A stretch of DNA of 64,000 nucleotides. Origin: Escherichia coli (GTDB lineage: Bacteria; Pseudomonadota; Gammaproteobacteria; Enterobacterales; Enterobacteriaceae). The stretch lies in the NCBI RefSeq assembly GCF_013122565.1, contig NZ_CP053258.1. One strand, given 5' to 3'. Position numbers and translations under genes: made by a program. A model generated the notes under the pieces. It was not told the origin of the DNA and did not search any database. It saw only the letters and a program-made list of their open reading frames with translations. Below are positions 41,292 through 42,600 of this stretch, piece after piece. Every line of letters begins with the position of its first letter. Position 1 is the first letter of the stretch.

Positions 41292-42104
41292 ATGATCTAC
41301 ATTATAAATGATGAAGTAAGATTCAACTCATCATCTAATAAGTTAACATCACTCCTTACATCAGAGGAAGTGATACTCACTTATCCTGCGGGAAAATGCT
41401 TAAAATTACTTTTAGATAACGCTTATAGTGTCGTATCGCACAATCAATTCTTTGAAAAAGTCTGGAGCGATAGCAGCGCTGAAGTCGCAACCAATACTTT
41501 ATATCAAAACATTTCGATGATAAGACGCTCCTTTCGTGAAATCAGCTCATCGACGATATTTAATGATATTATCAGAACGGTGCCGCGTAAGGGTTTTAAA
41601 ATCAATGAAGAAATCAACATAACTGTTCTCGACAATAATCATACTGAGAATGAAAGTGTTGAGAGTGAAGAGGATGGTACCCACATTGAAAATATAAATA
41701 AAAATCATGTTGCAAAAGATATTTTCACCACAAAGAATACATTACTTATAGTGTACTTTTTTGCGGCATGGGGGATAGTGTATATATCTTCTTATTTTTT
41801 CGATATGGCTTTTCAAAGCAAAGCTCACACTATAAAAAAAACAGATGCTTTCTCAAATTATGCTCAACATCCTACTCAGGAAGGGTGTAGCTATTTCTAT
41901 GACAATATATATTTTAATTCCGTAGACATGTTATCACCGATTATTGAAAAATTGCAGAAAATGGAAATTAACTGCAAAATACATCCTTACATTTACATTG
42001 CAACAAATGATAGCATGAGCGGGTTTTATGCTTTCACCTGTAGTCAGATGTTAAACTCTGAATCACCAAATAATTGTAATTCTCTCTATTATAAAGCGGA
42101 GTAA
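41292..42104 (+). CDS. ToxR/CadC-like membrane-bound winged-helix transcriptional regulator
   Basis: N-terminal OmpR/PhoB-type wHTH-like segment, single TM (LLIVYFFAAWGIVYISSYFF), periplasmic C-domain; very AT-rich. Confidence 0.55.
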   Translation: MIYIINDEVRFNSSSNKLTSLLTSEEVILTYPAGKCLKLLLDNAYSVVSHNQFFEKVWSDSSAEVATNTLYQNISMIRRSFREISSSTIFNDIIRTVPRKGFKINEEINITVLDNNHTENESVESEEDGTHIENINKNHVAKDIFTTKNTLLIVYFFAAWGIVYISSYFFDMAFQSKAHTIKKTDAFSNYAQHPTQEGCSYFYDNIYFNSVDMLSPIIEKLQKMEINCKIHPYIYIATNDSMSGFYAFTCSQMLNSESPNNCNSLYYKAE

Positions 42105-42108
42105 TCAT

Positions 42109-42600
42109 ATGACTCAAAGATATTTTCTATTTGCGGGAATAATTTTATGTGCTTTTATTGCAGCAATTCTTAGCCATATTGCGTTTCATCATGCCAATGA
42201 ACCAGCAGAGCAAAACATATCATGTAATGCCCATGTTATTAATTTCACCGATCATACGAAAATGGATCAATACTTTTCGTTAAATATGATTTCTGAAAAT
42301 AATACAGGGAATATGTATCTCACGGGTGCTTACACGGTAAATGGGAAAAAAATGGGTTTCATCCGCCGATATGTGAGTTTTACATACAAGAAATTCCGTG
42401 ATACCGTTTATTTCACCACAGTTAAAATACAAAAAATACAAAAAGATGATAACATTAGTGATGAAATCCTTGAAAATATCACTTCTGATTTTTTCATAAA
42501 AGTAGACACCTCAATTAATTTTTATGTTACACGTCAAAATGATTACAACTACGTATTCTCTACAGGCAGGACACCACGCTTCATATGTATTTCCCACTAA
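42109..42600 (+). CDS. Small bitopic membrane protein, possible ToxS-like partner
   Basis: N-terminal TM anchor; starts 5 bp after ToxR-like stop. Confidence 0.4.
   Translation: MTQRYFLFAGIILCAFIAAILSHIAFHHANEPAEQNISCNAHVINFTDHTKMDQYFSLNMISENNTGNMYLTGAYTVNGKKMGFIRRYVSFTYKKFRDTVYFTTVKIQKIQKDDNISDEILENITSDFFIKVDTSINFYVTRQNDYNYVFSTGRTPRFICISH

What the first reader, a model, noticed from the sequence alone, without database searches (positions are those of the whole stretch)
41292..42600. ToxR/ToxS-like regulator pair in an AT-rich pocket of the island
A membrane-anchored winged-helix regulator is followed 5 bp later by a small bitopic membrane protein, the arrangement seen in ToxRS, and in PsaEF/MyfEF which control fimbriae in Yersinia. 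The pair is plausibly the signal-responsive activator of the neighbouring fimbrial and/or TPS-lipid genes.
Basis: inference. Interest (0 to 1): 0.5.

Follow-up and report, generated by a model that had tools for sequence, protein, structure and literature searches.

The report
Known E. coli GrvA/FidL membrane regulator
These two genes are the already described GrvA/FidL pair of E. coli genomic island OI-47, a ToxR/ToxS-type membrane-bound sensor and regulator, so the reading is correct but not new; whether it controls the fimbrial genes next door is still untested.

Summary
ORF A (41292-42104, 270 aa) has an OmpR/PhoB-type winged helix, one membrane helix and a C-terminal domain with four invariant cysteines. 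ORF B (42109-42600, 163 aa) starts 4 nt after A's stop and has an N-terminal membrane helix followed by a beta-barrel.

The window is E. coli chromosome, syntenic with O-island 47 of O157:H7. A is 95% identical to Sakai ECs_1274 (GrvA). B is 99% identical to ECs_1273 (FidL-like).

Both genes are under strong purifying selection (dN/dS 0.09 and 0.03).

Kinch et al. 2022 already list GrvA/FidL as a "co-component" ToxR/ToxS-VtrA/VtrC-type system. EHEC work reports RcsB-dependent grvA expression and indirect LEE activation through gadW/gadE repression.

So the ToxRS-like call is supported and already known. Control of the neighbouring fimbrial/TPS genes is unproven. It has circumstantial support: the layout is conserved in Pseudocitrobacter, and homologous pairs repeatedly sit beside fimbrial or autotransporter loci.

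The parts
41158..41190 (+). Conserved upstream element. It is an imperfect direct repeat, TCAAGATTATTCTTA (41158-41172) and TCAGATAATTCACA (41177-41190). The second copy overlaps the predicted -35. The first copy resembles the RcsAB box.
   Evidence: In the alignment with the Pseudocitrobacter orthologous upstream region (about 50% protein identity), this is the longest invariant block, TCAGATAATTCACA. The Pseudocitrobacter sequence carries two near-identical copies. The 13-mer occurs only once in the window without mismatch and is not enriched at up to 3 mismatches. The 11/14 match to the RcsAB-box consensus is my own comparison with a consensus recalled from memory, so it is inference. Reviews state that RcsB binds the grvA promoter (PMC8565820).
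41185..41214 (+). Sigma-70-like promoter candidate for the grvA-fidL operon (TTCACA, 18 nt spacer, TATACT). It would give a 5' UTR of about 70 nt.
   Evidence: Consensus scan, 10 of 12 matches. The number of such sites in the region is not above the shuffled expectation, so this is only a candidate. Its position next to the conserved block is the supporting point.
41292..42104 (+). grvA orthologue. A transmembrane transcription regulator with wHTH (about 1-107), an acidic/Asn-rich linker (108-148), a TM helix (about 150-170) and a periplasmic beta-beta-alpha-beta-beta-beta domain (172-270) with invariant Cys199, 228, 250 and 262.
42109..42600 (+). fidL-like (YqeJ family) co-component. It has an N-terminal TM helix (about 4-26) and a periplasmic eight-stranded lipocalin-like barrel. 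Cys39 (invariant) and Cys160 (at least 90% conserved) lie on the first and last strands.

Best explanation
The pair is the E. coli GrvA/FidL-like cassette of an O-island-47-type genomic island. It is a co-component transmembrane transcription regulator of the ToxR/ToxS-VtrA/VtrC superfamily.

**Shown here**
- GrvA is an inner-membrane protein with a cytoplasmic OmpR/PhoB-type winged helix.
- It also has a small ToxR-like periplasmic domain with four invariant cysteines.
- FidL-like is a bitopic protein whose periplasmic part is a ToxS/VtrC-like lipocalin barrel.
- The two genes are 4 nt apart, with a Shine-Dalgarno sequence for the second gene inside the end of the first.
- Both genes are under strong purifying selection.

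**Inferred from the family (PMC9214523; VtrA/VtrC and ToxR/ToxS structures)**
- The periplasmic domain of GrvA docks by a beta-strand onto the open edge of the FidL barrel.
- Binding of a hydrophobic or other envelope signal to the barrel changes the stability or oligomeric state of GrvA.
- That in turn changes how the membrane-tethered wHTH binds promoter DNA.

**From the EHEC literature (reviews PMC10877973, PMC8565820, PMC6393859)**
- grvA transcription depends on RcsB.
- GrvA lowers gadW/gadE expression in exponential phase. This represses glutamate-dependent acid resistance and de-represses ler/LEE.

**Unknown**
- The ligand.
- The direct DNA targets.
- The role of FidL.
For: **Identity**
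- The window is 100% identical to the E. coli PapRG-04-4 chromosome.
- The gene order is the same as in O157:H7 Sakai: pgaABCD, dgcT/ycdT, EAL, fidL, grvA, SDR, fimbrial operon, TPS, fatty-acid genes, ycdU, integrase.
- A is 256/269 identical to ECs_1274 (grvA). B is 160/162 identical to ECs_1273.

**Domains of A**
- Trans_reg_C at E = 3.6e-11.
- Best PDB sequence hit is the ToxR DNA-binding domain, E = 1.8e-7.
- Single TM segment.
- Four Cys invariant across 22 homologues at 24-95% identity.
- The periplasmic domain model (pLDDT 76) has the order beta2-alpha-beta3.

**Domains of B**
- Model pLDDT 95.
- The top seven Foldseek PDB hits are ToxS (8u2f, 8alo_B) and VtrC (5kev, 5kew, 8dml), with TM-scores of 0.52-0.72.
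- Paralogy to K-12 YqeI/YqeJ: E = 5e-40 and 3e-17.
- A source names the cluster FidL, with precomputed PF27292 (named YqeJ_C) and PF15941 (named FidL_like).

**Selection**
- dN/dS is 0.09 for grvA and 0.03 for fidL, at dS 0.23 and 0.17.

**Literature**
- GrvA/FidL is listed as a co-component system, with an AlphaFold complex model. [quoted passage not shown]
- GrvA-FidL is named as a coTTR in PMC13042144.
Against: - No experiment on the FidL-like protein of OI-47 was found in the papers I could read. One survey lists no associated protein for GrvA (PMC10269533).
- I could not compute a complex model with an interface read-out.
- The primary GrvA paper (PMC4719443) is not in the library. The regulatory steps therefore rest on reviews.
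- I did not check whether this particular strain (a baboon isolate) carries LEE. The LEE branch of the mechanism may not apply to it.
Confidence: 0.9

Rival explanations
1. This is the first reader's functional idea, and it does not exclude the main explanation. The primary or ancestral job of the pair would be local: signal-dependent activation of the adjacent Stb-like chaperone-usher fimbrial operon, and possibly the divergent KduD-like SDR gene and the TPS-lipid cluster. This would parallel PsaE/PsaF controlling psaABC and MarT controlling misL. The LEE/GAD effects would be secondary.
For: **Conserved layout.** In Pseudocitrobacter, where the proteins are only 51-52% identical, the layout is the same: TPS, 207-aa ORF, fimbrial operon, SDR, wHTH, YqeJ_C. 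The right flank differs.

**Other homologous pairs sit next to adhesin loci.**
- An ECP fimbrial operon (L007).
- Chaperone-usher operons: L008, L009, L010 and L015.
- Pertactin-type autotransporters: L011 and L012.

In all, about six independent architectures lie within 10 kb of an adhesin locus. From general knowledge, a random Enterobacterales gene would be that close to a chaperone-usher operon roughly one time in ten.

Published family members PsaE/PsaF, MyfE/MyfF and MarT regulate neighbouring adhesin genes (Table 1 of PMC10269533; PMC9214523).
Against: - No report of altered OI-47 fimbrial or TPS expression in grvA mutants appears in any paper I could read.
- The conserved element in the grvA promoter is not found in the 1.4-kb fimbrial/TPS intergenic region.
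- The window strain and Sakai are nearly identical across the fimbrial/SDR block (dS 0.003-0.04) but carry old divergent alleles of grvA-fidL-EAL (dS 0.13-0.23). Regulator and fimbrial alleles are therefore freely reassorted.
- Deletion of the whole OI-47 is reported to raise type III secretion (PMC10877973). That concerns a distal output, not a local one.
Confidence: 0.3
2. GrvA acts as a stand-alone one-component regulator, as CadC does. The downstream FidL-like protein would be functionally unrelated or dispensable for signalling.
For: All published phenotypes I could read are attributed to grvA alone. One survey lists no associated protein for GrvA. In one Serratia locus no partner gene is called downstream of the regulator (L010).
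Against: - The 4-nt spacing, with a Shine-Dalgarno sequence inside grvA.
- The pairing is conserved in almost all homologous loci sampled.
- fidL shows the strongest purifying selection in the block, dN/dS 0.03.
- The barrel has the ToxS/VtrC fold.
Confidence: 0.07
3. The pair is a decaying, H-NS-silenced remnant of a horizontally acquired island with no current function.
For: The pocket is AT-rich (GC 0.33). Many O-island fimbrial loci are cryptic in the laboratory (general knowledge).
Against: Both reading frames are intact in 407 of 410 E. coli genomes with at least 80% coverage. dN/dS is 0.03-0.09 across a deep allelic split. Published grvA mutant phenotypes exist.
Confidence: 0.03

Closest known systems
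[not shown]
   Same: Orthologues. The proteins are 95% and 99% identical, have the same lengths, the same 4-nt spacing and the same neighbours on both sides.
   Different: This is a different, older allele. The grvA-fidL-EAL block differs from the O157:H7 allele at dS 0.13-0.23, while the adjacent fimbrial block is nearly identical. There are 13 amino-acid changes in GrvA, 6 of them in the 41-residue linker. The host is a baboon commensal-type isolate, not an O157:H7 strain.
YqeI/YqeJ (E. coli K-12, ETT2 remnant) and MarT/FidL (Salmonella SPI-3)
   Same: Paralogous cassette of the same subfamily. YqeI is 33% identical over the full length and YqeJ is 21% identical. Domain order and all conserved cysteines are the same.
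   Different: The genomic location and neighbours differ: ETT2 with yqeH, and SPI-3 with misL. In K-12 the two ORFs overlap by 8 nt instead of being 4 nt apart.
ToxR/ToxS (Vibrio) and VtrA/VtrC (V. parahaemolyticus)
   Same: The architecture of both proteins and the operon order are the same. The DNA-binding domain is detectably similar in sequence to ToxR. The partner shares the ToxS/VtrC barrel fold. The periplasmic domain of the regulator shares the ToxR fold.
   Different: The partner has only 8-13% identity to ToxS/VtrC, so no sequence-level membership. The regulator's periplasmic domain lacks the C-terminal helix of ToxR/VtrA (also noted in PMC9214523). FidL-type barrels carry a conserved first-to-last-strand cysteine pair. 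The ligand is unknown. For ToxRS and VtrAC it is bile salts.
PsaE/PsaF (Yersinia pH 6 antigen) and MyfE/MyfF
   Same: Co-component pairs encoded next to a chaperone-usher fimbrial operon, as here.
   Different: Those pairs are shown to activate the adjacent fimbrial genes. Here that link is untested. I did not compare the sequences directly.

Membership tests
Co-component transmembrane transcription regulators (ToxR/ToxS-VtrA/VtrC superfamily; Kinch et al. 2022) | [quoted passage not shown] | tested here: met
   Pfam Trans_reg_C at residues 25-103, E = 3.6e-11. Best PDB sequence hit is the ToxR DNA-binding domain, E = 1.8e-7.
Co-component transmembrane transcription regulators (ToxR/ToxS-VtrA/VtrC superfamily; Kinch et al. 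2022) | [quoted passage not shown] | tested here: met
   There is one hydrophobic window, residues about 150-170 (Kyte-Doolittle 1.6-1.8 over 19 residues), and no other. This is a hydropathy calculation only. No dedicated topology predictor was available.
Co-component transmembrane transcription regulators (ToxR/ToxS-VtrA/VtrC superfamily; Kinch et al. 2022) | Regulator's periplasmic domain has the small alpha/beta ToxR/VtrA fold with conserved disulfide cysteines | tested here: met
   [not shown]
Co-component transmembrane transcription regulators (ToxR/ToxS-VtrA/VtrC superfamily; Kinch et al. 2022) | Adjacent same-strand partner gene encoding an N-terminal TM helix plus a periplasmic lipocalin-like barrel (ToxS/VtrC fold) | tested here: met
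   4-nt spacing. TM helix at about 4-26. Model pLDDT 95 with eight strands. The seven best PDB fold matches are ToxS and VtrC chains.
Co-component transmembrane transcription regulators (ToxR/ToxS-VtrA/VtrC superfamily; Kinch et al. 2022) | The two periplasmic domains form a heterodimer | not testable with these tools
   The structure tool returns no inter-chain confidence. PMC9214523 reports an AlphaFold GrvA/FidL complex model and dimeric complexes of co-expressed YqeI/YqeJ periplasmic domains.
Co-component transmembrane transcription regulators (ToxR/ToxS-VtrA/VtrC superfamily; Kinch et al. 2022) | The barrel binds a small-molecule signal (bile salts in VtrC/ToxS) | not testable with these tools
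   No ligand is known for any FidL/YqeJ-type barrel in the papers read.
GrvA/FidL of O-island 47 (orthologue) | Near-identical sequence to ECs_1274/ECs_1273 | tested here: met
   256/269 and 160/162 identical residues.
GrvA/FidL of O-island 47 (orthologue) | Same chromosomal position and island gene order (between dgcT/ycdT and ycdU) | tested here: met
   Gene-by-gene synteny between the window genome and Sakai. One 35.9-kb collinear alignment at 98.2% identity. In genomes lacking the island the match resumes at window position about 44398, next to dgcT.
GrvA/FidL of O-island 47 (orthologue) | RcsB-dependent promoter | tested here: inconclusive
   There is a conserved block with an RcsAB-box-like sequence (11/14 to a consensus recalled from memory) just upstream of a promoter-like site. 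Binding cannot be tested here.
GrvA/FidL of O-island 47 (orthologue) | Represses gadW/gadE and thereby activates LEE | not testable with these tools
   Known only from reviews of Morgan et al. 2016. The primary paper is not held.
YqeJ/FidL protein family (Pfam PF27292 YqeJ_C, PF15941 FidL_like) | Significant sequence match to family members, with the conserved cysteine pair | tested here: met
   BLASTP against K-12 YqeJ gives E = 3e-17. 77 representatives score E <= 1e-3. Cys39 is invariant and Cys160 is at least 90% conserved in 67 sequences. The 99%-identical cluster has precomputed PF27292/PF15941 and is named FidL. The local Pfam scan found nothing. The local library appears older: it holds PF00486.34, while the precomputed hits cite PF00486.35.
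ToxS family sensu stricto (orthologue of Vibrio ToxS) | Sequence-level similarity to ToxS | tested here: not met
   No Pfam or NCBIfam ToxS hit. Identity in the structural alignments is only 8-13%. It works like ToxS but is not a ToxS orthologue.
PsaE/PsaF-MyfE/MyfF (fimbrial co-component regulators) | Demonstrated activation of the adjacent fimbrial operon | not testable with these tools
   Only association evidence is available: conserved synteny and recurrent adhesin neighbours.

The most novel reading that the evidence does not exclude
GrvA/FidL would be primarily a local adhesin switch. It would directly activate the adjacent Stb-like chaperone-usher fimbrial operon, and perhaps the TPS-lipid genes, in response to a hydrophobic envelope or host signal bound by the FidL barrel. 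Most speculatively, that signal would be the lipid made by the island's own fatty-acid/ABC-export cluster. The LEE/GAD effects described in O157:H7 would then be a secondary cross-talk. More generally, the YqeI/YqeJ-MarT/FidL subfamily would be a dedicated family of adhesin-locus regulators.
Probability: 0.25. Interest if true: 0.45.

Novelty: already known. Interest (0 to 1): 0.15.

Why it matters
The pair is a recognised virulence regulator of EHEC and a published member of the co-component (ToxRS/VtrAC-like) family. Its presence here is ordinary annotation and does not count as a discovery.

Three questions remain open, and they apply to the whole FidL/YqeJ subfamily:
- What does the barrel sense?
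- Is FidL needed for GrvA function?
- What are the direct DNA targets?

The comparative data gathered here suggest a cheap experiment: test whether GrvA/FidL controls the neighbouring fimbrial operon. The supporting data are the regulator-SDR-fimbrial-TPS layout conserved across genera and the repeated adhesin neighbours of homologous pairs.

The data also show that the island is not confined to the EHEC O157:H7, O55:H7 and O145:H28 lineages, contrary to what one review states.

Tried and rejected
- **Local Pfam and NCBIfam scans of ORF B.** Neither gave a meaningful hit. The family models PF27292/PF15941 appear only in precomputed annotations.
- **Shared operator search.** I looked for the conserved grvA-promoter element elsewhere in the window, especially in the fimbrial/TPS intergenic region. 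There is no enrichment and no copy there.
- **Promoter/terminator scan of 40500-42800.** Counts were not above the shuffled expectation. No terminator was found between the two genes or after fidL.
- **Rfam scan.** No RNA family in or near the pair.
- **Primary GrvA paper (Morgan et al. 2016).** I tried to read it to see whether OI-47 genes are in the GrvA regulon. It is not held.
- **Fused-chain complex prediction.** Considered and not run, because the tool returns no inter-domain error estimate, so the interface could not be judged.
- **Genome-wide scan of genome contigs to quantify the adhesin association.** Considered and not run, because its cost is out of proportion to a finding that is already known.
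- **Pfam and NCBIfam on the 207-aa ORF at the head of the fimbrial operon.** No family.
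Full report
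**Observation**

They coincide with the RefSeq gene calls of the genome that matches the window at 100% identity.

Four nucleotides separate A's stop from B's ATG. A GGAG lies 7 nt upstream of that ATG, inside the end of A. This fits co-transcription and translational coupling.

The surrounding 41-43 kb has a GC fraction of 0.33-0.34, against about 0.45-0.55 for most of the window.

**What the window is**

The window is E. coli chromosome. It is identical to strain PapRG-04-4, a stool isolate from a Guinea baboon.

The gene order around the pair runs as follows:
- pgaABCD
- dgcT (ycdT)
- a CSS-type EAL phosphodiesterase
- the FidL-like gene
- the wHTH gene
- a KduD-like SDR on the opposite strand
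- a six-gene chaperone-usher fimbrial operon
- a two-partner secretion pair
- an acyl-carrier/ketosynthase/ABC-exporter cluster
- ycdU
- an integrase

The same order is found in E. coli O157:H7 Sakai from ECs_1268 to ECs_1299, which is O-island 47. One collinear alignment of 35.9 kb at 98.2% identity joins the two genomes.

ORF A is 256/269 identical to ECs_1274, annotated grvA. ORF B is 160/162 identical to ECs_1273, annotated FidL-like protein.

In E. coli genomes without the island, similarity to the window resumes at about position 44398, just outside dgcT. The EAL gene, the pair and everything to their left as far as ycdU therefore belong to the island.

**Anatomy of A (GrvA)**

- Residues 25-103 match Pfam Trans_reg_C (E = 3.6e-11).
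- The best match among all solved-structure sequences is the DNA-binding domain of V. cholerae ToxR (E = 1.8e-7, residues 2-106). Weaker NCBIfam matches go to CadC and HilA/EilA.
- A single hydrophobic stretch lies at about 150-170.
- It is preceded by a 41-residue acidic, Asn-rich linker.
- The C-terminal 99 residues contain four cysteines (199, 228, 250, 262). These are invariant in 22 homologues at 24-95% identity.
- An AlphaFold model of this domain (pLDDT 76) has the order beta-beta-alpha-beta-beta-beta.
- Foldseek found nothing significant for the model.
- The fold order without a C-terminal helix is what Kinch et al. describe for GrvA, YqeI and their relatives (PMC9214523).

**Anatomy of B (FidL-like)**

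- A strongly hydrophobic N-terminal helix at about 4-26 is followed by an eight-stranded barrel.
- The model is very confident: pLDDT 95, pTM 0.81, from a 67-sequence alignment.
- The seven best Foldseek matches in the PDB are all partner proteins of ToxR-type regulators: V. parahaemolyticus ToxS (8u2f), V. cholerae ToxS from the ToxR-ToxS heterodimer (8alo_B), and VtrC with and without bile salts (5kev, 5kew, 8dml). TM-scores are 0.52-0.72 at 8-13% sequence identity.
- Classical lipocalins follow further down the list.
- Cys39 (invariant) and Cys160 (at least 90% conserved) sit on the first and last strands. This matches the disulfide that Kinch et al. describe for the FidL/YqeJ group.
- The family is small and divergent. 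Only 77 of 1.84 billion representative proteins score E <= 1e-3.
- The local Pfam scan missed it. Precomputed annotations give PF27292 (YqeJ_C) and PF15941 (FidL_like), and a source names the cluster FidL.

**Relatives**

K-12 YqeI/YqeJ are paralogues: 33% identity (E = 5e-40) and 21% identity (E = 3e-17). The alignments cover nearly the full length and the cysteines are conserved.

**Are the genes functional?**

Yes, by the selection test. The window allele and the Sakai allele are old.

| Gene or block | dS | dN/dS |
|---|---|---|
| grvA | 0.23 | 0.09 |
| fidL | 0.17 | 0.03 |
| EAL gene | 0.13 | 0.11 |
| usher gene | 0.041 | 0.06 |
| SDR and the two distal fimbrial genes | 0.003-0.012 | too few differences (3-4 nt per gene) |

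Six of the 13 GrvA replacements fall in the linker.

The contrast between the two blocks shows that the island is a mosaic. A recombination boundary lies near 41.0-41.5 kb.

**What is known**

Kinch et al. [quoted passage not shown] They describe these systems as homologous to VtrA/VtrC and ToxR/ToxS.

They present an AlphaFold model of the GrvA-FidL complex with a VtrA/VtrC-like interface. [quoted passage not shown]

A 2026 preprint names "GrvA-FidL from enterohemorrhagic E. coli" as a co-component transmembrane transcription regulator (PMC13042144).

Reviews of the EHEC work (PMC10877973, PMC8565820, PMC6393859) state four things:
- RcsB activates grvA and binds its promoter.
- GrvA overexpression raises ler transcription and adherence.
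- A grvA deletion lowers 21 LEE genes and raises gadA/BC/E/W/X, acting through gadW and the gadE P3 promoter in exponential phase.

**Mechanism**

*Shown here.* The two proteins have the domain architecture and folds of a ToxR/ToxS-type pair. They are encoded as a tight unit and are under selection.

*Inferred from the solved VtrA/VtrC and ToxR/ToxS complexes and from the published GrvA/FidL model.* The periplasmic domain of GrvA completes the open barrel of FidL. Signal binding to the barrel alters GrvA stability or oligomerisation. That alters binding of the tethered wHTH to DNA.

*From the literature.* The input from RcsB, and the output through gadW/gadE to LEE and acid resistance.

*Unknown.* The ligand, the direct targets, and whether FidL is required.

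**Promoter**

I compared the 690-bp upstream region with that of the Pseudocitrobacter orthologue. The proteins there are about 50% identical and the DNA is otherwise poorly alignable.

The longest invariant block is TCAGATAATTCACA at 41177-41190. A related copy, TCAAGATTATTCTTA, lies at 41158-41172.

The block abuts a promoter-like site, TTCACA-18-TATACT, at 41185-41214.

The upstream copy matches 11 of 14 positions of the RcsAB-box consensus as I recall it. This fits the reported RcsB control but was not tested.

No paper I could read links GrvA to the OI-47 fimbrial, TPS or lipid genes. The primary paper is not in the library.

Evidence in favour is comparative:
- Pseudocitrobacter sp. RIT415 has the same module: TPS, 207-aa ORF, pilin, chaperone, usher, 444-aa subunit, chaperone, SDR, wHTH, YqeJ_C. 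Protein identity is 51-52% and the right flank is unrelated.
- A 49%-identical pair lies directly downstream of an ECP fimbrial operon.
- A 33%-identical pair has a chaperone-usher operon, together with a LuxR-type (GerE) gene, within a few kb.
- 25%-identical pairs in Serratia lie divergent from a chaperone-usher operon.
- A further homologue, found through its FidL-like partner, has a chaperone-usher operon within a few kb, with a LysR-type gene between them.
- Two more pairs lie beside pertactin-type autotransporters.

This echoes MarT with misL, and PsaEF/MyfEF with their fimbriae.

Evidence against, or neutral:
- The conserved grvA-promoter element is absent from the fimbrial/TPS intergenic region.
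- The regulator block and the fimbrial block have reassorted by recombination.

I rate local control at about 0.3. It does not exclude the published distal role.

**Distribution**

The pair is present in 410 of 5,426 complete E. coli genomes, once per genome.

Most of the sampled hits at 95.3% identity are labelled O157:H7. O55:H7 matches at 94.8% and O145:H28 at about 94.2%.

Closer alleles (95.4-100%) occur in isolates from baboons, pigs, cattle, chickens and humans that are not labelled EHEC. One review states that OI-47 is exclusive to these EHEC/EPEC lineages. That is too narrow.

**Verdict**

The object is the known GrvA/FidL co-component regulator of OI-47. Novelty: already known. Interest is low.

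The residual value is a testable suggestion that this subfamily regulates adjacent adhesin loci.

Noticed in passing
window 41000-44400 versus 33000-41000: The island is a mosaic relative to O157:H7 Sakai. The grvA-fidL-EAL block is 93-96% identical in DNA (dS 0.13-0.23). The adjacent SDR and most of the fimbrial operon are 99-100% identical (dS 0.003-0.04). This implies a recombination boundary near 41.0-41.5 kb. Other lower-identity patches lie at 28.5-29.5 kb (tpsA) and 34.5-35.5 kb.
   Followed up: partly
window 41158-41190: An imperfect direct repeat lies upstream of grvA. Its second copy, TCAGATAATTCACA, is invariant between E. coli and Pseudocitrobacter and overlaps a -35-like hexamer. 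The first copy resembles an RcsAB box.
   Followed up: partly
L005-L015 (loci of homologous pairs): wHTH/YqeJ_C pairs repeatedly sit beside chaperone-usher or ECP fimbrial operons or pertactin-type autotransporters. A GerE/LuxR-type regulator gene is often nearby, as with yqeH-yqeI-yqeJ in K-12.
   Followed up: partly
window 42701-44311 (-) and L013 10001-12009: The FidL-like gene converges on an EAL phosphodiesterase gene here; its best NCBIfam match is a cyclic di-GMP phosphodiesterase model. In L013 an apparently orphan YqeJ_C gene converges on a CSS-motif EAL gene. L008 has a BLUF-EAL gene 4.6 kb from its pair. This may be a recurrent link to c-di-GMP turnover.
   Followed up: no
E. coli genomes collection: The OI-47-type island occurs in 410 of 5,426 complete genomes. 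These include isolates from baboons, pigs, chickens and humans that are not labelled EHEC. A review describes the island as exclusive to O157:H7, O55:H7 and O145:H28. One match is on a record labelled plasmid.
   Followed up: partly
window 40920-41060: A patch of noticeably higher GC sits inside the AT-rich divergent intergenic region between the SDR gene and grvA. It has terminator-like hairpins on both strands (41021-41037 on +, 40954-40941 on -). It has no obvious counterpart in Pseudocitrobacter.
   Followed up: no
window 33052-33675 (+): A 207-aa ORF heads the fimbrial operon and is conserved in Pseudocitrobacter at the same length and position. It has no Pfam or NCBIfam family.
   Followed up: partly
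window 39822-40604 (-): The SDR gene divergent from grvA is KduD-like. Its best NCBIfam hit scores 295 bits, below the 369-bit cut-off. It keeps its position next to the pair in Pseudocitrobacter. In K-12, kduD lies about 5 kb upstream of the paralogous yqeI-yqeJ.
   Followed up: no
window 11010-11133 (-) and 52593-52786 (+): Two Rfam matches above the gathering score. STnc490 (Hfq-binding RNA) lies next to the IS200-like tnpA. Ysr251 (annotated antisense RNA) overlaps the phoH gene on the opposite strand.
   Followed up: no
protein P0086 (E. coli DEC4E GrvA variant): One deposited GrvA variant is 87% identical. The difference is concentrated in the TM segment, as if two compensating frameshifts had scrambled residues about 140-170. 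It may be a non-functional allele or a sequencing error.
   Followed up: no
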